IMG/VR virus record: IMGVR_UViG_2872698443_000002
Length of the DNA: 35,230 nucleotides
DNA from: a virus
Taxonomy: Duplodnaviria > Heunggongvirae > Uroviricota > Caudoviricetes
Reading direction: 5' to 3' (one strand)
Position 1 is the stretch's first letter. Each line of letters opens with the position of its first letter. Made by a program: the position numbers and the translations under genes. This document shows, piece by piece, positions 1-11,258 of the stretch. The notes under the pieces are model-generated. The model worked only from the letters and a program-made list of their open reading frames with translations. It made no database searches and had not been told where the DNA came from.

Positions 1-1032
1 TCAATCGCGTCTCAGCTGGGGTAAGCGAGACATCTTGGCGGGTTGATAAGCTATAGTGATCAAGAACTGAGAATACTTGAACCAATTCTCTAGAATCCCT
101 TCACCATATATCAAAATTTTATCTTCTATAGGGAAGTACAAGTTTACCACTTCATTTCTGCAAGTATCCAAGAAGGCGTAGGTTATCTCTTCTAAGGATT
201 GCAGTGATTCGTACAGAGTGCCAAAATCATAAAATGGTGAATAAACTTGGTATTTATTATAACTATCATTTATTACAAATGACTTTTTATAATGAAATCC
301 ACCTAAACACAACAGTTTACAAGTTTTTTCATAAATAATCATAACTCCTACAAATATTCTCATCTTTGTTGTGCAAAGTTCCTCTGTAGGATGTATTTGA
401 TTTTCACTCTCGGATAATTGCTTGAGTCTTGCGTTGATTTCTACCCAACATTTGTGTAAATCAATAACAAATTGCTCATTAATATCTAATTGTTGAGAAT
501 CATCAGGCGTAGATTGTGGGTATGCTTTTCTATATAATTCTTGTGGATGTTTTATAAAATGTTGGTAGATTGCTTCAGCTTGAGCTTCCTGAACCGGGTA
601 GTAGCTGCCTATTCTTTTTCCTTCGATTTTTTTATATAAATCAAGATGAAATTTCATGTGGTTGTAATATAAATCTACCCTGTTTTTCCTTTCTGCCTCT
701 GAGATCTGTTTTTCTGTTTGTTTGGTTCTGTGTAGGTTGTTTACTATTGAAACTAAAGGTACTGCAGATGCAAGGATGAGTAATGGTAATTTCGAGATAT
801 CTAAAAATCTCTCATAACCGTGACTTGTAAGACTAAAAGAGTGTATTTTATCTATCCAGACAAAAGAACCAAAGTAAAGGCTGGTGAATAAAGGTAGGCC
901 TATTGCAGCCCAGAACAAGGGTTGTTGGAACAAGCTTCTATGATCGAGAACATAAAGTCGATATTTTATAAATAAGAATATACAACCTAATAAAACGGAT
1001 AGGTACATAAATGTGCTAATGCTTTTTTCCAT
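1..1032 (-). CDS. hypothetical membrane protein; AT-rich cargo gene immediately downstream of int
   Basis: 343-aa ORF. The first ~100 aa carry three hydrophobic helix-like stretches, followed by a ~240-aa soluble region with no motif I recognise. Its ATG starts 2 nt after the int stop (tgaTAATGg). Visibly more AT-rich than the phage backbone. Confidence 0.6.
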   Translation of the reverse strand: MEKSISTFMYLSVLLGCIFLFIKYRLYVLDHRSLFQQPLFWAAIGLPLFTSLYFGSFVWIDKIHSFSLTSHGYERFLDISKLPLLILASAVPLVSIVNNLHRTKQTEKQISEAERKNRVDLYYNHMKFHLDLYKKIEGKRIGSYYPVQEAQAEAIYQHFIKHPQELYRKAYPQSTPDDSQQLDINEQFVIDLHKCWVEINARLKQLSESENQIHPTEELCTTKMRIFVGVMIIYEKTCKLLCLGGFHYKKSFVINDSYNKYQVYSPFYDFGTLYESLQSLEEITYAFLDTCRNEVVNLYFPIEDKILIYGEGILENWFKYSQFLITIAYQPAKMSRLPQLRRD

Positions 1033-2057: not shown

Positions 2058-2708
2058 TTAGAGGTTCTTGATTACTTTGACTGCACGTCCTACGACTTCC
2101 ACATCATCTACAGAACATTCAAATGAAGTGTCATCTTGGTTAACTACTATTTTGTTTCCGGGTATGCGCGCAATTTTGACGATGTTTTTCATACCGTCGA
2201 TGTCTATGAGCCAAATTCCGTTACTAAGCTGTTTTGCTGATGTATCAACAATGTAATTGCCGTCGTTAGCTTTGACGTACAAACAATATTCGGCTTTTCC
2301 GGGTATCAAAGTCTGATCAAGGAAAACATCCCCCATCTCTTCGAGCGTTCCGTTCTCAATGGTTGCCTGCCTTACTGATGGGATAACTATCTTTGAAAGG
2401 GGGCGAACTGTAGGTGAACTCTCGTTTTTGAACTTATTTTTTTCTTCTGTTTGAGGATACATTTCCCCTTGGCCCGTTGTCAGCCAAAGAAGAGAAATAC
2501 CTGTTTCAAGGGCACATTGAATAACCCAGTCAGCAGGGAAGCTATCACGTAACATCCTGTTTGCCATGGTGCTTTTTGATGCTTCGAGGTGTTCAACCAA
2601 CGCAATCTGAGTGTTGAAACCATAGGCAGTCATCAGCCTTTTGATGGTCTCTCTTCCTCCCGTATTTGCACCTGTATTAATCTTCAAGATGAACTCTCCA
2701 TTTGACAA
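2058..2708 (-). CDS. cI: CI-type immunity repressor (186 CI-like)
   Basis: 216-aa ORF from a TTG; N-terminal HTH-like segment (AYGFNTQIALVEHLEASKSTMANRM) and a C-terminal domain ending ...FECSVDDVEVVGRAVKVIKNL. Its stop is 4 nt from the int start (cI-int operon). The start codon is uncertain: TTG at 2708 or ATG at 2633. Confidence 0.7.
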   Translation of the reverse strand: MSNGEFILKINTGANTGGRETIKRLMTAYGFNTQIALVEHLEASKSTMANRMLRDSFPADWVIQCALETGISLLWLTTGQGEMYPQTEEKNKFKNESSPTVRPLSKIVIPSVRQATIENGTLEEMGDVFLDQTLIPGKAEYCLYVKANDGNYIVDTSAKQLSNGIWLIDIDGMKNIVKIARIPGNKIVVNQDDTSFECSVDDVEVVGRAVKVIKNL

Positions 2709-4409: not shown

Positions 4410-4636
4410 TGGCTGATGCAATGGATCTCGTACAGCAGCGAGTTGAAGAAGAACGCCAACGTCATATCCGTGCTGCCCGTGCCAAAACGCCGGGCGTGTC
4501 CCGCGTGCTTTGCGTTGAGTGTGAAGCGCCAATTCTGCCAGCACGCCGTCGTGCCATTCCGGGTGTGCAGCTTTGCATTACCTGTCAGGAAATCGCAGAG
4601 CTGAAAGGCAAACATTACAACGGAGGTGCTGTATGA
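4409..4636 (+). CDS. TraR/DksA-family C4 zinc-finger protein
   Basis: 75 aa with C-x2-C-x17-C-x2-C (CVECEAPILPARRRAIPGVQLCITCQ). Small phage proteins of this family are common in P2-like early operons. Confidence 0.8.
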   Translation: MADAMDLVQQRVEEERQRHIRAARAKTPGVSRVLCVECEAPILPARRRAIPGVQLCITCQEIAELKGKHYNGGAV

Positions 4637-5257
4637 GCACCATCCTGAAATGGGCGGGAAATAAAACCGCCATAATGTCCGAACTGAAAAAGCATCTTCC
4701 TGCTGGCCCGCGACTGGTTGAACCTTTCGCGGGATCCTGTGCAGTGATGATGGAGACGGATTACCCCAGCTATCTTGTTGCGGATATTAATCCTGATTTA
4801 ATCAACCTCTATAAAAAGGTTGCTGCTGATTGTGAGGCGTTTATATCTCGTGCCAGAGCTTTATTTGAGGAAGCAAACAGGGAGGTGGCTTATTACAACA
4901 TAAGGCAGGAGTTTAATTACTCCACTGAAATTACTGATTTCATGAAAGCGGTATATTTTCTGTATCTCAATCGTCATGGTTATCGTGGGTTATGTCGCTA
5001 TAACAAGAGCGGGTATTTCAACATTCCCTACGGTAATTATAAAAATCCGTATTTCCCTGAAAAAGAAATTCGCGCATTTGCAGAGAAAGCCCAGCGGGCA
5101 ACGTTTATCTGCGCCAGCTTTGATGAAACGCTGGCGATGTTGAAGGCGGGGGATGTGGTGTATTGCGATCCGCCTTATGACGGTACGTTTTCCGGCTATC
5201 ACACTGATGGCTTCACTGAAGATGACCAGTATCACCTGGCATCCGTTCTTGAACATC

Positions 5258-5262
5258 GATCA
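5258..5262. repeat. IS2 target-site duplication, left copy (GATCA)
   Basis: The 5-bp GATCA immediately left of the IS2 end is repeated at 6594..6598. Confidence 0.8.
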
Positions 5263-5353
5263 TAGACTGGCCCCCTGAATCTCCAGACAACCAATATCAC
5301 TTAAATAAGTGATAGTCTTAATACTAGTTTTTAGACTAGTCATTGGAGAGCAG

Positions 5354-5719
5354 ATGATTGATGTCTTAGGACCGGAGAAACGCAGACGGCGTACTACACA
5401 GGAAAAGATCGCTATTGTTCAGCAGAGTTTTGAACCGGGAATGACGGTCTCCCTTGTTGCCCGGCAACACGGTGTGGCAGCCAGCCAGTTATTTCTCTGG
5501 CGCAAGCAATACCAGGAGGGAAGTCTTACTGCTGTGGCCGCAGGAGAGCAGGTCGTTCCTGCCTCTGAACTTGCTGCTGCCATGAAGCAGATTAAAGAAC
5601 TCCAGCGCCTGCTCGGCAAAAAAACGATGGAAAATGAACTCCTTAAAGAAGCCGTTGAATACGGGCGTGCAAAAAAGTGGATAGCGCACGCGCCCTTATT
5701 GCCCGGGGATGGGGAGTAA
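5354..5719 (+). CDS. insC: IS2 transposase OrfA (InsC)
   Basis: 121 aa, [41 protein letters not shown]..., HTH-type OrfA of IS2. Confidence 0.9.
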
Positions 5720-6582
5720 GCTTAGTCAGCCGTTGTCTCCGGGTGTCGCGTGCGCAGTTGCACGTAATTCTCAGACGAACCGATGACTGGAAAGATGGTC
5801 GCCGCAGCCGTCACTCAGATGATACGGATGTGCTTCTCCGTATACACCATGTTATCGGAGAGCTGCCCACGTATGGTTATCGTCGGGTATGGGCGCTGCT
5901 TCGCAGACAGGCCGAACTTGATGGTATGCCTGCGATCAATGCCAAACGTGTTTACCGGATCATGCGCCAGAATGCGCTGTTGCTTGAGCGAAAAACCGCT
6001 GTACCGCCATCGAAACGGGCACATACTGGCAAAGTGGCCGTGAAAGAAAGCAATCAACGATGGTGCTCTGACGGGTTCGAGTTCCGCTGTGATAACGGAG
6101 AAAAACTGCGAGTCACGTTCGCGCTGGACTGCTGTGACCGTGAGGCACTGCACTGGGCAGTCACTACGGGCGGCTTCGACAGTGAAACAGTACAGGACGT
6201 AATGCTGGGAGCGGTGGAACGCCGCTTCGGCAACGAGCTTCCGGCGTCTCCAGTAGAGTGGCTGACGGATAATGGTTCATGCTACCGGGCTAATGAAACA
6301 CGGCAGTTTGCCCGGATATTGGGGCTTGAACCGAAGAACACGGCGGTGCGGAGTCCGGAGAGTAACGGCATAGCAGAGAGCTTCGTGAAAACGATAAAGC
6401 GTGACTACATCAGTATCATGCCTAAACCAGACGGGTTAACGGCAGCAAAGAACCTTGCAGAGGCGTTCGAGCATTATAACGAATGGCATCCGCATAGTGC
6501 ACTGGGTTATCGCTCGCCACGGGAATATCTGCGGCAGCAGGCCAGTAATGGGTTAAGTGATAACAGGTGTCTGGAAATATAG
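5677..6582 (+). CDS. insD: IS2 transposase OrfB (InsD), DDE catalytic domain
   Basis: 301 aa from GTG 5677, overlapping orfA in the -1 frame; an A-AAA-AAG frameshift motif lies just upstream of the orfA stop. Confidence 0.9.
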
Positions 6583-6593
6583 GGGCAAATCCA

Positions 6594-6598
6594 GATCA
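6594..6598. repeat. IS2 target-site duplication, right copy (GATCA)
   Basis: Direct repeat of 5258..5262. Confidence 0.8.
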
Positions 6599-6822
6599 TC
6601 TGAAGGTCATCCGGTCATTGTTTCTAACAGTGACACATCCCTGATTCGTTCGCTGTATCGCAATTTCACTCACTACTACATCAAGGCAAAACGCAGCATC
6701 GGCGTGTCGGCTGGCGAGAGTAAATCTGCAACAGAAATCATTGCTGTTTCCGGGGCGCGCTGCTGGGTGGGATTTGATCCTTCGCGTGGCGTGGATAGTT
6801 CTGCCATGTACGGAGTGCGTGC

Positions 6823-9237
6823 ATGAGCCATGATGATATGAACAACTGCAGCGGCTTTAACGAGGCCGCCGCAGCATTCTCATGGAACAGCCCGAAAAAG
6901 GCCATTAACCCTTATCTGGACCCGGCGGAAGTTGCGCCGGTTTCTGCGCTTTCAAACCTGATCACTCTGTACGCTGCCGATAACGAGCAGGAACAACTGC
7001 GCCGCGAGGCACTGAGTGATCAGGTCTGGGAGCGTTATTTCTTTAATGAATCCCGTGATCCTGTCCAACGCGAAATGGAGCAGGATAAGCTCATTAGCCG
7101 GGCAAAGCTGGCGCATGAGCAGCAGCGTTTTAATCCAGATATGGTCATTCTGGCGGACGTCAATGCCCAGCCTTCCCATATCAGCAAGCCGCTGATGCAA
7201 CGTATTGAATACTTCAGCAGCCTGGGCAGGCCAAAGGCTTATTCCCGCTATTTGCGTGAGACGATTAAGCCATGTCTGGAACGACTGGAGCATGTACGCG
7301 ACAGTCAGCTATCCACTTCTTTTCGCTTTATGGCAAGCCATGAAGGGCTGGACGGCCTGCTGATCCTGCCTGAAATGAGTCAGGAGCAGGTGAAACGCTT
7401 GTCTACCCTTGTCGCTGCGCATATGAGCATGTGTCTTGATGCAGCTTGTGGCGATTTGTATGTCACCGATGACGTTAAGCCAGAAGAAATCCGCAAGACA
7501 TGGGAAAAGGTGGCAGCGGAAACCCTGCGTCTGGATGTCATCCCGCCTGCGTTTGATCAACTCCGCCGGAAAAGAAACCGCCGTAAACCCGTGCCCTATG
7601 AACTCATTCCGGGTTCGCTGGCGCGTATGTTGTGCGCCGACTGGTGGTACCGGAAATTATGGAAGATGCGTTGCGAATGGCGGGAAGAGCAGTTGCGTGC
7701 TGTCTGCCTGGTCAGCAAAAAAGCATCTCCCTATGTCAGCTATGAAGCCGTGATGCATAAACGTGAGCAGCGCCGTAAGTCGCTGGAGTTTTTTCGTTCT
7801 CATGAACTGGTGAACGAAGACGGCGACACGCTGGACATGGAGGATGTGGTAAACGCCAGCAGCAGCAACCCTGCGCATCGCCGCAATGAGATGATGGCCT
7901 GTGTTAAAGGTCTGGAGCTTATCGCGGAAATGCGCGGTGACTGCGCCGTTTTCTACACCATCACCTGTCCGTCACGTTTCCATTCCACGCTAAATAACGG
8001 CAGGCCAAACCCGACCTGGACCAACGCGACAGTAAGACAAAGCAGTGATTATCTGGTCGGCATGTTTGCTGCATTTCGTAAGGCTATGCACAAAGCCGGG
8101 TTGCGCTGGTATGGCGTGCGGGTGGCTGAGCCGCATCATGACGGCACAGTTCACTGGCACCTGTTGTGTTTCATGCGCAAAAAAGACCGCCGCGCCATTA
8201 CTGCATTGTTGCGTAAGTTTGCCATCCGTGAAGACCGCGAGGAGCTGGGCAATAACACGGGACCACGCTTTAAGTCTGAGCTGATAAACCCGCGCAAAGG
8301 AACGCCGACAAGCTACATTGCGAAATATATCAGTAAGAATATTGACGGGCGTGGTCTGGCTGGCGAGATCAGTAAGGAAACGGGGAAATCCCTGCGTGAT
8401 AACGCTGAATACGTTAATGCCTGGGCGTCTCTGCATCGTGTTCAGCAATTCCGCTTCTTTGGCATTCCGGGGCGTCAGGCTTACCGTGAACTGCGATTGC
8501 TGGCTGGTCAGGCGGCAAGGCAACAGGGTGACAAAAAAGCAGGTGCGCCGGTACTGGATAACCCGCGCCTTGATGCCATTCTGGCTGCTGCTGATGCTGG
8601 TTGTTTTGCCACCTACATCATGAAGCAGGGCGGCGTACTGGTTCCCCGCAAATATCACCTCATCAGAACCGCTTATGAAATCAACGAAGAGCCAACCGCC
8701 TATGGCGATCACGGTATTCGTATTTATGGCATCTGGTCACCCATTGCAGAGGGCAAGATCTGCACTCATGCAGTGAAGTGGAAAATGGTTCGTAAGGCCG
8801 TTGACGTTCAGGAGGCGGCAGCCGACCAGGGCGCTTGCGCCCCTTGGACTCGTGGCAATAACTGTCCCCTTGCTGAAAATTTGTACCAACAAGGGAAAGA
8901 CAAATCAGCTGATGGAGATACCAGAACGGATATCACCCGCATGGATGACAAGGAGTTGCACGATTACCTGCACAGTATGAGCAAAAAAGAGCGCCGGGAA
9001 CTGGCAGCAAGGTTACGCCTGGTGAAACCGAAACGGCGTAAAGACTACAAACAGCGAATTACAGACCATCAGCGACTGCAGCTCGTGTATGAACTGAAGT
9101 CCAGGGGATTTGATGGCAGCGAGAAAGAGGTCGATTTACTCCTTCGCGGCGGCAGTATTCCGTCAGGAGCAGGCCTGCGTATCTTCTATCGGAACCAGCG
9201 TTTGCAGGAAGATGATAAGTGGCGAAACCTGTATTAA
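6823..9237 (+). CDS. A: replication initiation endonuclease gpA (rolling-circle, HUH class)
   Basis: 804 aa. Contains an HUH-like motif (VHWHLLCF) and a downstream tyrosine motif ([14 protein letters not shown]). Position after the early operon matches P2/186 gene A. Confidence 0.9.
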
Positions 9238-9306: not shown

Positions 9307-9349
9307 TTTACATCAGTAAGATTATTATATACTGTAAATATAAACAGTG
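9307..9349 (+). promoter_or_regulatory. SOS-regulated promoter: -35 TTTACA, -10 TATACT, overlapping LexA box TACTGTAAATATAAACAGTG
   Basis: CTGT-N8-ACAG at 9332..9347 matches the LexA box consensus and overlaps the -10 (9328..9333). It sits about 45 bp upstream of the tum-like ORF. Confidence 0.7.
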
Positions 9350-9389
9350 GTTATGTATACAGTATTGCTTTGGTGTCATAGGAGGAAAG

Positions 9390-9578
9390 ATGCAGGACTA
9401 TTTTTTGGAGTCTTTGAAGCTCCAGCGCATTGATTTTTTTCTTAAGCTTGTAGCGGCTAGTGAGTGTAGTGATGAAGAGAAGGGGCTGGCTCTGCAGTGG
9501 GTTTCTGAACTGACAGATGAACTCATGGCAAAAATCAGAACCCACGAATACAACCGCTCAATGGATGTCATCAGCTGA
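9390..9578 (+). CDS. tum-like SOS antirepressor, N-terminal portion (possibly one half of a split tum)
   Basis: 62-aa ORF directly downstream of the LexA box. Size and position fit the N-terminal half of a 186 Tum-like protein. Confidence 0.45.
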   Translation: MQDYFLESLKLQRIDFFLKLVAASECSDEEKGLALQWVSELTDELMAKIRTHEYNRSMDVIS

Positions 9579-9588
9579 GGTGACTTTT

Positions 9589-9822
9589 ATGCGCATTGAA
9601 ATAATGATCGATAAAGAGCAGAAGATTAGCCAGTCTACACTGGACGCCCTTGAATCCGAGCTTTACCGCAATCTGCGCCCCCTGTATCCCAAAACGGTAA
9701 TTCGTATCCGCAAAGGTAGCTCTAACGGTGTGGAACTTACCGGATTGCAACTGGACGAAGAAAGAAAACAAGTGATGAAAATTATGCAGAAGGTGTGGGA
9801 AGACGACAGCTGGCTGCATTAA
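9589..9822 (+). CDS. DinI-like protein
   Basis: 77 aa, MRIEIMIDKEQKISQSTLDALESELYRNLRPLYP...VMKIMQKVWEDDSWLH, resembling E. coli DinI (MRIEVTIAK...ETWESADDWF). RBS GAGG at 9576..9579. Its frame stays open upstream to 9517, overlapping the previous ORF. Confidence 0.8.
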   Translation: MRIEIMIDKEQKISQSTLDALESELYRNLRPLYPKTVIRIRKGSSNGVELTGLQLDEERKQVMKIMQKVWEDDSWLH

Positions 9823-10033
9823 GAAACGTTGCTGGCGTCTGAACCTGCTTCTGGCGTCAGCAAGGTTGAACCGCGAGCCTTGAGAGGCGTTAACCATAAG
9901 TAAAAAGACAGTAATCACTTGATTATCTATCAGGGCGAGACCTATGCTGCACTTTTAGTTATAACTCATAATGTATTGAAATTATTAGAATATATGTCAT
10001 TCTTAAAATGTGTATGCTTATCAAGGAGCAAGA

Positions 10034-10906
10034 ATGAAACGTGGCATTGTAGCTAATCCTAATGAAATGAGTTTTCATAGAAATAATAGTACGGTCTATC
10101 TTGGGGCAGGTTTAACTGAGCAGGATATTAATTATTTCTGCTTTTACTGGGATGATGTGGTTATTCTAGATAGTGAAAATATTCACTCGATTGTGCCTAA
10201 AGAAAAAGAATTATTAGATAATGGGGTATTACGTAGACCTATTATGAAACATGATGGTATGCTGAATATCCAAGACTTTCCATTTTTATATACGGAATTT
10301 CAGTTGCAGACATTGGATGAATTCAGGAAGAACGAGCCTGCTACTTATTGGCACTTTCATCAAACAGGGGAAAATTTAATATATGATAAAGAACAGAAAA
10401 CGGCCCTTCAGTTGAGATTGGAGTTGTTTAATGTTCTGAGAATTCCTGATAAAGATGCTCATATAGAAGATATATTACGTTTTAAAGATGATTGTCAGGA
10501 TGATCTTAATGCGTTACATGAGTACTTAGAAAAACTGTATACTGAAGTCCTTTATTCTAGAGACCCTAATCTAACGAGGGCTAAAAATTTTTCTTTATTA
10601 CAAGAGGCTGTAGTTAATCTTGATAAAGCTATCGAAGGGAAATGGAGAAATCCTATCAGAATGGGAGTCAAAGCCAATCCAGAAGTAGATGGTGGGCAGG
10701 TTATGGAATTTTTAAAACCGTTGTACCATGCTGCTATTGCTGGTTATTCAGGCGGTATTATTCCCGGTATGGTTACAGCCTTGGCAACCGCAATTCCAAG
10801 TTTTATAAAAATCCAACCAGAATGGGTGGGCTTTAGAGATAAGGGGCCTAAAGAATTAGCTTATCTTACCAAAGCAACGCATAAGGGGTTGATTAAGAGA
10901 GCTTAA
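10034..10906 (+). CDS. hypothetical protein; AT-rich cargo ORF in the A-to-cos variable region
   Basis: 290 aa from ATG 10034 (RBS AAGGAG 6 nt upstream; an upstream GTG at 10010 is also possible). Visibly AT-rich. C-terminal glycine-rich hydrophobic segment AAIAGYSGGIIPGMVTALATAIPSF. No catalytic motif recognised. Confidence 0.6.
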   Translation: MKRGIVANPNEMSFHRNNSTVYLGAGLTEQDINYFCFYWDDVVILDSENIHSIVPKEKELLDNGVLRRPIMKHDGMLNIQDFPFLYTEFQLQTLDEFRKNEPATYWHFHQTGENLIYDKEQKTALQLRLELFNVLRIPDKDAHIEDILRFKDDCQDDLNALHEYLEKLYTEVLYSRDPNLTRAKNFSLLQEAVVNLDKAIEGKWRNPIRMGVKANPEVDGGQVMEFLKPLYHAAIAGYSGGIIPGMVTALATAIPSFIKIQPEWVGFRDKGPKELAYLTKATHKGLIKRA

Positions 10907-11078
10907 GGCATTTTAATCGATTTTCGCAACTATATTCCTTCGTAACCACACAAGTGCATGACTATGCCGCATGAATCCGCATGATCGTTTGAGGATCGTT
11001 TTAGCTGAGGCCCGCTAGGAATGGCGGGCCTTTGCTTATGTCATGCAGGCGCATGAAAACCACTACATAAAGCGGGCA

Positions 11079-11097
11079 GGCGTGGCGGGGATACGAG
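11079..11097. other. candidate cos cohesive-end site (GGCGTGGCGGGGATACGAG)
   Basis: Lies in the intergenic region just downstream of portal gene Q, where P2/186 cos is located. The first 13 nt resemble my recollection of the 186/P2 cohesive end (GGCG(T/A)GGCGGGGA...). Confidence 0.4.
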
Positions 11098-11258
11098 CGC
11101 GCGCAACGGGGTAAAATGGCCAAAATCCGGCACAGCCTCTGGCCCGCTGGCGGCCTCATTTAGTGGAGGGGGGGGAGATGTCAGGGCAAAAAGAAACGCC
11201 CCGCAGAATGCTGCTGAGGCGTTGTGAGAGTTGGTCGGTTATTGATGTTATGAGTATG

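What the first reader, a model, noticed from the sequence alone, without database searches (positions are those of the whole stretch)
9307..9822. LexA-controlled tum-like/DinI-like operon; tum appears split into two overlapping frames
A consensus LexA box (CTGT-N8-ACAG, 9332..9347) overlaps a sigma70-like promoter just upstream of a 62-aa ORF and a 77-aa DinI-like ORF. From what I recall of 186, its SOS antirepressor Tum is about 146 aa with a DinI-like C-terminal half. Here the two ORFs are in different frames and both frames are open across 9517..9578, so a single-base indel would fuse them into a protein of about 144 aa. This is either a frameshifted tum or a natural two-gene arrangement.
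Basis: partly seen in the sequence, partly recalled or inferred. Interest (0 to 1): 0.5.

Follow-up and report, generated by a model that had tools for sequence, protein, structure and literature searches.

The report
Prophage SOS switch: tumA plus dinI-like
This is the ordinary, intact DNA-damage "induction switch" of a Fels-2/186-like prophage of E. coli: a LexA-repressed promoter driving a small antirepressor gene and a separate DinI-like gene. It is not a broken tum gene, and the arrangement is already described and experimentally tested in near-identical phages.

Summary
A strong LexA box (9330..9349) overlaps a 186-p95-type promoter and is followed by a 62-aa ORF (9390..9578) and a 77-aa DinI-family ORF (9589..9822; the ATG is at 9589).

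Related intact phages in at least five genera keep the same two genes. The ORF1 stop stays at codon 63 (TGA/TAA/TAG). The intergenic gap is 10, 11, 12 or 3 nt, so all three relative frames occur. Both genes are under strong purifying selection (dN/dS 0.02-0.10).

The locus is in 1,125 of 5,426 complete E. coli genomes. PSP3 annotates the pair as tumA/tumB, and the literature states that Fels-2 and PSP3 have a split tum. In E. coli HS an in-frame deletion of the 62-aa gene (61/62 identical to the window's) abolishes mitomycin-C induction.

Two extras I found:
- The operator is a colicin-type double LexA box.
- Near-identical TumA proteins accompany CI repressors only 35-83% identical to one another.

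Verdict: already known, low interest.

The parts
9307..9312 (+). -35 hexamer TTTACA of the SOS (p95-like) promoter
   Evidence: Same layout as the annotated 186 p95. TTTACA and the 17-nt spacing are conserved in SopEPhi, MLG42 and KPC3phi13.6 while the spacer sequence diverges. Not called by the generic scan.
9330..9335 (+). -10 hexamer TACTGT, identical to the annotated 186 p95 -10 and forming the first 6 nt of LexA box 1
   Evidence: 186 record: the -10 signal and the LexA site start at the same base; sequences compared.
9330..9349 (+). LexA box 1, TACTGTAAATATAAACAGTG (3 mismatches to the 20-mer consensus)
   Evidence: Unique in the window, 0/100 shuffles; conserved in all relatives.
9345..9364 (+). 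LexA box 2, CAGTGGTTATGTATACAGTA (5 mismatches), starting exactly 15 bp after box 1. Together they form a 35-bp colicin-type double SOS operator.
   Evidence: Conserved at +15 in all six Fels-2-group phages (4-6 mismatches). Absent in 186, PSP3, ESSI-2 and Y. enterocolitica phages (12-15 mismatches). Identical to box 2 of the colicin Y operator and near-identical to the pesticin operator. Colicin double boxes bind two LexA dimers (PMC2994835).
9380..9385 (+). Shine-Dalgarno AGGAGG of ORF1 (4 nt before the ATG)
   Evidence: Read directly from the sequence; AGGAGG/GGAGGG conserved in relatives.
9390..9578 (+). tumA-type gene: 62-aa antirepressor module, predicted two-helix hairpin
   Evidence: Profile homology to 186 Tum residues 1-44: 30-32 bits against a maximum of 15.4 in 20,000 shuffles. 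dN/dS 0.02-0.09. AF2 pLDDT 89. 61/62 identical to E. coli HS ECHS_RS04495, whose in-frame deletion abolishes MMC induction.
9577..9582 (+). Shine-Dalgarno GAGGTG of ORF2, overlapping the ORF1 stop codon (TGA 9576..9578), 6 nt before the ATG
   Evidence: Sequence; relatives have AGGGAA/GGGGAA at the same place.
9589..9822 (+). tumB-type gene: 77-aa DinI-family protein
   Evidence: Pfam PF06183 6.6e-23. 78% identical to PSP3 TumB and 41% to the 186 Tum C-terminal half, E 1e-24. PDB DinI 1GHH/7YWA E 2.7e-6. dN/dS 0.03-0.10. Below the NCBIfam DinI equivalog cutoff (42.7 vs 111 bits).
9829..9863 (+). Stable hairpin just after the tumB stop, without a U-tract; possible partial terminator or mRNA end (weak evidence)
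   Evidence: Fold -34.3 kcal/mol for 9815..9935, z = -1.77, 8/200 shuffles as good. Occupies the position of the 186 partial terminator t95a.
2058..2708 (-). 186-type CI immunity repressor, the presumed target of TumA
   Evidence: Pfam Phage_CI_repr 1.5e-28 and Phage_CI_C 2.3e-30; 30% identical overall to 186 CI in the multiple alignment (tblastn 32.6% over 89% of the query).

Best explanation
This is the intact SOS-induction operon of a Fels-2/186-like (Peduoviridae) prophage in E. coli, in its normal two-gene form (tumA-tumB).

Proposed mechanism:
1. In the lysogen, LexA occupies a 35-bp double operator (9330..9364) that covers the -10 hexamer and the likely transcription start of a p95-type promoter, keeping the operon off.
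2. DNA damage activates RecA, LexA cleaves itself, and a bicistronic mRNA is made.
3. The first product, a 62-aa two-helix protein homologous to the N-terminal half of 186 Tum, inactivates the prophage's 186-type CI repressor (2058..2708, minus strand) by binding rather than by cleavage. This derepresses the early lytic promoter.
4. The second product, translated from its own ribosome-binding site that overlaps the tumA stop codon, is a DinI-like protein that probably modulates RecA filaments and hence the SOS signal.

Shown here: sequence anatomy, conservation, purifying selection and homology.
Shown by others on a 98%-identical gene: tumA and cleavable LexA are required for induction.
Inferred: direct TumA-CI binding in this lineage, occupancy of both LexA boxes, and the role of TumB.
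For: Two-gene layout:
- Annotated in Fels-2 (ORF1 61/62 identical, ORF2 identical), in PSP3 as tumA/tumB, and in SopEPhi, SEN8, MLG42 and a Klebsiella phage.
- The stop stays at codon 63 while the stop codon, spacer length (10/11/12/3 nt) and relative frame all vary.
- dN/dS is 0.02-0.10 for both genes at dS 0.2-2.8.
- The locus is in 1,125 of 5,426 complete E. coli genomes, and PGAP calls two genes.

No fused relatives:
- An exhaustive HMMER search of 1.84 billion representatives found 86 relatives, essentially all small stand-alone proteins and none fused to DinI.
- None of the top 120 clusters in the 5.8-billion set has a DinI domain.

Homology: ORF1 matches the 186 Tum N-terminal module at 30-32 bits, against 15.4 for the best of 20,000 shuffles.

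Regulation and target:
- The LexA 20-mer is unique in the window.
- The promoter layout equals the annotated 186 p95.
- The repressor has both 186-CI Pfam domains.

Literature:
- 186 Tum sequesters CI after LexA derepression of p95 (PMC7708051).
- In E. coli HS, in-frame deletion of ECHS_RS04495 or a lexA(Ind-) allele abolishes MMC-induced lysis (PMC12055606). ECHS_RS04495 is the 62-aa ORF, 61/62 identical to the window's.
Against: - No direct evidence that this TumA type binds CI. The HS paper says only that it 'inhibits pro-lysogenic regulators'.
- TumA does not co-vary with CI: phages with 98-100% identical TumA have CI proteins 35-83% identical to the window's. This is unexpected for a specific binding partner unless a conserved surface is recognised.
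- PSP3 TumA, the only split antirepressor with claimed activity, is not detectably similar to ORF1.
- The -10 hexamer is poor (3/6), and a generic scan finds no promoter.
- Box 2 has a GTG instead of the critical CTG in its left half-site.
- An IS2 element upstream of gene A (about 5267..6597) may make this particular prophage unable to complete lytic growth even if the switch works.
Confidence: 0.9

Rival explanations
1. Frameshifted (decaying) tum: an ancestral 186-like fused tum gene was broken by a single-base indel or a sequencing error, for example in the A5 run at 9530..9534, leaving two fragments.
For: 186 Tum is a single 146-aa protein whose halves correspond to the two ORFs. Both frames are open over 9517..9578. 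The prophage shows other damage, an IS2 insertion.
Against: - The same stop position is kept in many independent genomes and at least five phage genera, with different stop codons and spacer lengths.
- Both ORFs show dN/dS below 0.1.
- ORF2 has its own conserved SD and ATG.
- The sequence is 100% identical in independent complete genomes, and the junction is identical in E. coli HS, whose prophage is fully inducible and infectious.
- No fused relative of this type was found.
- The one apparent fusion, P0108, was a gene-caller read-through of TAG.
Confidence: 0.01
2. Programmed +1 ribosomal frameshifting in the 9517..9578 overlap produces a full-length Tum-like fusion protein in addition to the two separate products.
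For: A 25-codon overlap of the two open frames lies in this lineage. 186 makes both full-length Tum and a DinI-like C-terminal product from one gene.
Against: - The overlap is not conserved: it is 14, 4 or 1 codons in relatives, and the required shift would be +1, +2 or 0 depending on lineage.
- The peptide encoded by the overlap differs between lineages.
- I saw no slippery or stall motif, although no dedicated search was run. There is also no Rfam hit.
- The local hairpin at 9567..9584 is not conserved and is within chance expectation.
Confidence: 0.02
3. ORF1 is required for induction but does not act by binding CI. It targets another conserved component (Apl/Cox, CII, a host factor, or LexA/RecA itself), which would explain why one TumA sequence serves very different CI proteins.
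For: TumA is 98-100% identical across phages whose CI is 35-83% identical to the window's. The HS study demonstrates requirement, not target. No structure or family annotation exists for ORF1.
Against: - Homology to the N-terminal module of 186 Tum, which binds CI and blocks operator binding.
- The CI N-terminal HTH domain stays 60-98% identical across these phages and contains a nearly invariant segment that could be the shared docking surface.
- The SOS reporter is normal in the HS delta-tum strain, so TumA is not needed for LexA/RecA signalling.
Confidence: 0.07

Closest known systems
E. coli HS prophage DuoHS tum (ECHS_RS04495) plus its DinI-like gene (ECHS_RS04500)
   Same: ORF1 is 61/62 identical and ORF2 77/77 identical. 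The promoter has the same double operator architecture (box 1 identical, box 2 differing at 2 positions) and the junction is identical. Both lie downstream of gene A. An in-frame tum deletion or lexA(Ind-) abolishes MMC induction (PMC12055606).
   Different: The CI repressor is only 38% identical (189 vs 216 aa). The downstream cargo genes differ. DuoHS has an intact Dam methylase gene, whereas in the window it is split by IS2.
Salmonella phage Fels-2 STM2728 / STM2726.1
   Same: 97.9% nucleotide identity over the operon. The same two CDS are annotated, with 61/62 and 77/77 identical products. The literature describes it as a split tum (PMC3121763). From my memory of the abstract of Bunny, Liu & Roth 2002 (not held in the library), the Fels-2 tum homologue is what makes lexA null mutations lethal in Salmonella LT2.
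   Different: Similarity ends at the tumB stop, and the downstream cargo differs (STM2726 vs a DUF6236 gene). CI is 61% identical.
Phage PSP3 tumA / tumB
   Same: Two separate genes behind a LexA box and downstream of gene A. TumB is 78% identical to ORF2. The upstream gene is reported to carry the antirepressor activity (PMC3121763).
   Different: PSP3 TumA shows no detectable similarity to ORF1, though it does match the 186 Tum N-terminal half (38% over 29 aa). It has a single LexA box, a 3-nt spacer and both genes in the same frame.
Coliphage 186 Tum (p95 SOS operon)
   Same: LexA-repressed promoter with the -10 (TACTGT) inside the LexA box. An N-terminal antirepressor module is homologous to ORF1 (30 bits) and a C-terminal DinI-like module is 41% identical to ORF2. 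Same genomic position. Even 186 annotates a separate GTG-initiated 76-aa DinI-like product.
   Different: A single fused 146-aa ORF, a single LexA box, and orf97 downstream.
Gifsy-1/-2/-3 dinI-gfoA/gftA operons
   Same: LexA-controlled operons pairing a DinI homologue with a small antirepressor that acts on a non-cleavable repressor (PMC3121763).
   Different: The gene order is reversed (dinI first). These are lambdoid phages with unrelated repressor and antirepressor families.
Colicin / pesticin double SOS operators
   Same: Two LexA 20-mers offset by 15 bp. Box 2 is identical to that of colicin Y, and 85-92% identity extends over about 40 bp. They are known to bind two LexA dimers and give very tight repression (PMC2994835).
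   Different: They drive bacteriocin genes on small plasmids, and the -35 and flanking regions are unrelated.
Chromosomal E. coli DinI
   Same: Same Pfam family, same length, alignable end to end.
   Different: Scores 42.7 bits against the 111-bit equivalog cutoff, so it is a phage paralogue rather than the chromosomal orthologue.

Membership tests
Tum-type SOS antirepressor operon of 186-like (Peduoviridae) phages | LexA operator overlapping the promoter of the operon | tested here: met
   The 20-mer at 9330..9349 has 3 mismatches and occurred in 0/100 shuffles. It overlaps the -10 exactly as in the annotated 186 p95. LexA binding itself was not tested.
Tum-type SOS antirepressor operon of 186-like (Peduoviridae) phages | Position immediately downstream of replication gene A in a P2/186-like genome | tested here: met
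   The gpA-like ORF is at 6823..9237 and the portal and terminase genes follow on the minus strand. Synteny matches Fels-2, PSP3, 186 and DuoHS.
Tum-type SOS antirepressor operon of 186-like (Peduoviridae) phages | Sequence homology of the first product to the N-terminal (antirepressor) half of 186 Tum | tested here: met
   A profile recruited from ORF1 alone scores 186 Tum at 30.1 bits (residues 1-43) and a Y. enterocolitica phage 'tum protein' at 34.4 bits, against a best of 15.4 among 20,000 shuffles. Pairwise BLASTP alone fails.
Tum-type SOS antirepressor operon of 186-like (Peduoviridae) phages | Cognate 186-type (non-LexA-like) CI repressor in the same prophage | tested here: met
   PF07022 and PF16452 match the 216-aa ORF at 2058..2708, minus strand.
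Tum-type SOS antirepressor operon of 186-like (Peduoviridae) phages | Gene required for SOS induction; protein binds CI and blocks operator binding | not testable with these tools
   Requirement is shown by others for a 61/62-identical gene in E. coli HS. CI binding is shown only for 186 Tum.
DinI family (PF06183) | Match to the family model above the curated threshold over the full length | tested here: met
   81.3 bits against a 24.2-bit cutoff, profile positions 1-63 of 63; PDB DinI E 2.7e-6.
Chromosomal DinI orthologue (NCBIfam NF007893 equivalog) | Score above the equivalog cutoff | tested here: not met
   42.7 bits against a 111-bit cutoff. It is a phage DinI-like paralogue.
Frameshifted pseudogene of a fused tum | The stop or frame break is lineage-specific and absent from intact relatives, with relaxed selection on the fragments | tested here: not met
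   The stop is conserved at codon 63 in all relatives, the spacer and frame vary, and dN/dS is 0.02-0.10. No genuine fused form was found.
Programmed ribosomal frameshift gene pair | Conserved frame overlap with a conserved shift site and direction | tested here: not met
   The overlap is 25, 14, 4 or 1 codons, and relative frames +1, +2 and 0 all occur among relatives.
Colicin-type double overlapping SOS operator | Two LexA 20-mers offset by 15 bp (16-mer cores sharing one base) | tested here: met
   9330..9349 and 9345..9364. The pair is conserved in six Fels-2-group phages, and box 2 is identical to that of colicin Y. Occupancy by two LexA dimers was not tested.

The most novel reading that the evidence does not exclude
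One nearly invariant 62-aa TumA allele acts as a 'universal' antirepressor for a whole set of P2/186-like prophages whose CI repressors are only 35-83% identical. It would do so by docking on the conserved CI N-terminal HTH domain, so co-resident prophages with divergent CI proteins could cross-induce. Its colicin-type double LexA operator, possibly exchanged with bacteriocin plasmids, would set a higher damage threshold than the single box of 186 and PSP3.
Probability: 0.3. Interest if true: 0.4.

Novelty: already known. Interest (0 to 1): 0.12.

Why it matters
As a discovery it matters little. The split tumA/tumB arrangement has been in the literature since 2002-2011, is annotated in PSP3, and was functionally tested in 2025 on a gene 98% identical to this one.

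The practical value is in annotation. The 62-aa gene is labelled "hypothetical protein" by PGAP, PHROGs (phrog_698, unknown function) and nearly all phage records, although it is the induction trigger of a prophage family present in about a fifth of complete E. coli genomes. Many database entries also carry spurious N-terminal extensions translated through the promoter.

Two side observations could seed small follow-up studies on prophage cross-talk and induction thresholds:
- the colicin-type double LexA operator;
- a near-invariant TumA paired with highly divergent CI repressors.

Tried and rejected
- Pairwise BLASTP of ORF1 against 186 Tum or PSP3 TumA gave nothing significant. Profiles were needed.
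- Pfam, NCBIfam, PADLOC and PDB sequence searches on ORF1 gave no hits.
- The AF2 model of ORF1 is confident but is a generic two-helix hairpin, and the BFVD fold search gave no hit at E <= 1e-3.
- The generic promoter scan found nothing. The promoter was assigned by alignment to the annotated 186 p95 instead.
- The terminator-like hairpin at 9567..9584, spanning the ORF1 stop and the ORF2 SD, is within chance expectation and not conserved, so I did not adopt it as a coupling element.
- Rfam returned only a sub-threshold miRNA chance hit.
- The apparent natural ORF1-DinI fusion P0108 was rejected after reading the DNA. A TAG stop had been translated as Q by the gene caller, and the DinI gene on that contig is degraded.
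- The multi-stretch hits P0149 and P0197 are repeat or low-complexity artefacts, and P0141, P0154 and P0168 are chimeric gene calls.
- The rank correlation between TumA divergence and CI domain divergence was not significant with n = 10 non-independent phages.
- The primary paper, Bunny et al. 2002 (PMC151935), is not held. It is cited only through PMC3121763 and from memory of its abstract.
- Searching papers for 'TumA' and 'TumB' returned only irrelevant hits.

Full report
**1. What is in the sequence**

The window is a P2/186-like (Peduoviridae) prophage of E. coli. The finding lies just downstream of the gpA-like replication gene (6823..9237) and upstream of a cargo gene and the portal and terminase genes on the minus strand.

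- ORF1 runs 9390..9578 (62 aa) behind an AGGAGG Shine-Dalgarno sequence.
- Its TGA stop (9576..9578) overlaps a GAGGTG Shine-Dalgarno sequence, and ORF2 starts at ATG 9589 (not 9590) and ends at 9822 (77 aa).
- ORF2 is a full-length DinI-family protein (Pfam 6.6e-23; PDB DinI 1GHH/7YWA). It scores far below NCBI's equivalog cutoff for chromosomal DinI (42.7 vs 111 bits), so it is a phage paralogue.
- The CTGT-N8-ACAG core at 9332..9347 would by itself occur in 36% of shuffles.
- The 20-mer TACTGTAAATATAAACAGTG (9330..9349) is only 3 mismatches from the LexA consensus, is unique in the window and was never seen in 100 shuffles.
- A generic sigma-70 scan calls no promoter.
- However, the annotated p95 promoter of phage 186 is TTCACA-18 nt-TACTGT, with the -10 being the first six bases of the LexA 20-mer. 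The window has TTTACA (9307..9312)-17 nt-TACTGT (9330..9335) in exactly that arrangement.
- The -35 and its spacing are kept in relatives whose spacer sequence has diverged.

**2. Split gene or two genes?**

The region is 97.9% identical to Salmonella phage Fels-2 and 90-97% identical to many intact E. coli, Klebsiella and Salmonella phages. It occurs in 1,125 of 5,426 complete E. coli genomes, where PGAP calls two genes, "hypothetical protein" and "DinI-like family protein".

- Fels-2 annotates the same two CDS, with 61/62 and 77/77 identical products.
- Phage PSP3 names the equivalent pair tumA ("similar to 5' end 186 tum; UV induction of prophage") and tumB ("similar to dinI and 3' end of 186 tum").

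I compared the window with Fels-2, SopEPhi, SEN8, Yersinia phage MLG42, Klebsiella phage ST512-KPC3phi13.6 and PSP3:

| Feature | Result across relatives |
|---|---|
| ORF1 stop position | Always codon 63 in the Fels-2-type phages |
| Stop codon | TGA, TAA or TAG |
| Intergenic spacer | 10, 11, 12 or 3 nt, so ORF2 lies in frame +1, +2 or 0 relative to ORF1 |
| Upstream open extension of the ORF2 frame | Shrinks from 25 to 14, 4 and 1 codons |

Both genes are under strong purifying selection (dN/dS 0.02-0.10 at dS 0.2-2.8). It equally excludes a programmed frameshift, because neither the overlap nor the direction of the required shift is conserved.

A profile search of 5.8 billion proteins returned 1,109 relatives:
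- None of the best 120 clusters has a DinI domain.
- 104 of the 120 end at the canonical C-terminus.
- The longer entries are mostly gene calls that start upstream and translate through the promoter; 13 of the 120 carry short C-terminal extensions.
- One apparent fusion (P0108) turned out, on reading the DNA, to be a TAG stop translated as Q by the gene caller.

An exhaustive HMMER search of 1.84 billion representatives found 86 relatives, essentially all 35-130 aa and stand-alone. Some lineages (ESSI-2-like phages and Y. enterocolitica phages) carry the tumA-like gene alone behind a LexA box, with no DinI gene.

**3. Is ORF1 really the Tum antirepressor module?**

- ORF2 aligns to the C-terminal half of 186 Tum (41% identity, E 1e-24) and is 78% identical to PSP3 TumB.
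- ORF1 alone is too diverged for BLASTP.
- A 7-sequence family profile scored 186 Tum at 20-22 bits, against 12.3 for the best of 20,000 composition-matched shuffles.
- A 47-sequence profile recruited solely from ORF1 scored 186 Tum at 30-32 bits over its residues 1-44 and a Yersinia "tum protein" at 34 bits. The best shuffle scored 15.4.
- PSP3 TumA is not reached by this profile, although it matches 186 Tum directly (38% over 29 aa).
- AlphaFold predicts ORF1 as a confident two-helix hairpin (pLDDT 89, helices 2-23 and 28-61). The fold is too generic for a meaningful fold search.
- The prophage repressor (2058..2708, minus strand) has both Pfam domains defined on 186 CI.

**4. What the literature already says**

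- Lemire et al. [quoted passage not shown] 2002 and a personal communication from G. E. Christie (PMC3121763).
- In 186, LexA derepression of p95 produces Tum, which sequesters CI (PMC7708051).
- The 186 record itself annotates a separate GTG-initiated 76-aa DinI-like product that "modulates SOS induction". So even the fused gene expresses the DinI module on its own.
[quoted passage not shown] That deletion, like lexA(Ind-), abolishes mitomycin-C-induced lysis, while the host SOS reporter stays normal.
- I located that locus tag. It is the 62-aa ORF, 61/62 identical to the window's ORF1. It is followed by a DinI-like gene 77/77 identical to ORF2, with the same promoter and double-operator architecture (box 1 identical, box 2 differing at 2 positions) and an identical junction.

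The function of ORF1 as the SOS induction trigger is therefore experimentally established for a 98%-identical gene.

**5. Mechanism**

- Shown here: the anatomy, its conservation, purifying selection and homology.
- Shown by others: tumA and cleavable LexA are required for induction.
- Inferred by homology: TumA binds CI and prevents operator binding, and TumB modulates RecA filaments.

My best explanation (confidence 0.9) is the standard one. LexA holds the promoter shut. DNA damage removes LexA. TumA then neutralises CI without cleavage and the lytic operon fires. TumB tunes the SOS signal.

**6.

(a) The operator is double.
- A second LexA-like 20-mer (9345..9364, CAGTGGTTATGTATACAGTA, 5 mismatches) starts exactly 15 bp after the first.
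- It is conserved at that offset in all six Fels-2-group phages (4-6 mismatches).
- It is absent from 186, PSP3, ESSI-2 and Yersinia enterocolitica phages (12-15 mismatches).
- The 35-bp unit matches the operators of colicin Y, pesticin and another small bacteriocin-type plasmid at 85-92% identity, and box 2 is identical to that of colicin Y.
- Colicin operators of this design bind two LexA dimers and give very tight, late SOS expression (PMC2994835).
- That this prophage switch is similarly set to a high damage threshold is an inference.

(b) TumA does not co-vary with CI.
- Phages whose TumA is 98-100% identical to the window's have CI proteins 35-83% identical to the window's. The experimentally inducible DuoHS is at 38%.
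- The CI N-terminal HTH domain is the better-conserved part (60-98%, against 23-76% for the C-terminal domain) and contains a nearly invariant segment.
- This suggests the SOS cassette recombines independently of the immunity region and that TumA recognises a conserved CI surface.
- It also keeps alive a minor rival, that TumA acts on something other than CI.
- The rank correlation between TumA and CI-domain divergence was not significant.

**7. Verdict**

The finding is real, correctly identified as a LexA-controlled tum/DinI operon, and ordinary. The two-ORF form is the natural, widespread, functional arrangement and is already described and tested. Novelty: already known. Interest: low (0.12). 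The residual value lies in annotation, since ORF1 is "hypothetical" almost everywhere, and in the two side observations above.

Noticed in passing
window ~5267..6597 (IS2 orfA 5351..5719, orfB 5677..6582), flanked by Dam methylase gene fragments 4633..5265 and 6557..6826: An IS2 element (NCBIfam IS2 TnpA 276 bits, TnpB 704 bits) interrupts the D12-class DNA adenine methylase gene. That gene is intact and overlaps the start of replication gene A in E. coli S163-2, E. coli HS and Fels-2. The insertion sits in the early lytic operon just upstream of gene A, so it may be polar on replication and make this prophage defective even though its SOS switch is intact.
   Followed up: partly
window 2058..2708 (-) compared with L015-L023, L028: Phages with 98-100% identical TumA carry CI repressors only 35-83% identical to the window's. 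The CI N-terminal HTH domain is 60-98% identical and the C-terminal domain 23-76%. The SOS cassette appears to be exchanged independently of the immunity region, so a single TumA may serve many CI types.
   Followed up: partly
window 9823..11258 (DUF6236 gene 10034..10906): Similarity to Fels-2 stops exactly at the tumB stop, and the stretch between tumB and the portal gene is a variable cargo slot. The window has a DUF6236 protein (Pfam 4.4e-21, no PADLOC hit). E. coli S163-2 has DUF6236 plus an AIPR-family protein. Fels-2 has STM2726, phage 500465-1 has a TIR-domain protein, and 186 has orf97. This looks like a P2-type moron or defence hotspot, but the function of the DUF6236 gene is unknown.
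   Followed up: partly
window 1..1032 (-): A 343-aa ORF next to the integrase matches phrog_17460 (E 5e-203, unknown function) and has no Pfam or PADLOC hit. It has hydrophobic N-terminal segments and may be another prophage cargo gene at the attachment-site end.
   Followed up: no
window 9567..9584: A small hairpin (GTCATC-AGCTGA-GGTGAC) pairs the last codons of tumA with the Shine-Dalgarno sequence of tumB, which could couple tumB translation to tumA termination. It is within chance expectation (1 found vs 0.6 expected) and is not conserved in the 11- and 12-nt-spacer lineages.
   Followed up: yes
protein clusters P0005-P0066 and others; L024/L025: Many public gene calls for this ORF are 84-130 aa because the caller started upstream and translated through the promoter and LexA boxes. 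One cluster (P0108) is a false ORF1-DinI fusion caused by reading TAG as Q. A few phage records label ORF1 'levan regulatory domain protein'.
   Followed up: yes
L009 (ESSI2_ev040 653..913), L010 (Cronobacter ESSI-2 ~700..920, unannotated), L011 (Y. enterocolitica phage 677..859): Stand-alone tumA-like genes sit behind single LexA boxes with no DinI-like partner. In Cronobacter phage ESSI-2 the gene is not annotated at all. This shows that the antirepressor module functions as an independent unit.
   Followed up: partly
L021 (CP019275.1, 37,446-bp circular 'plasmid' p13P477T-2 of E. coli): A record in the phage collection, deposited as a plasmid, carries the same tumA/tumB locus (96% identity). 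Its repressor and integrase genes are annotated as frameshifted. It may be an excised or episomal P2-like element, or an assembly artefact.
   Followed up: no
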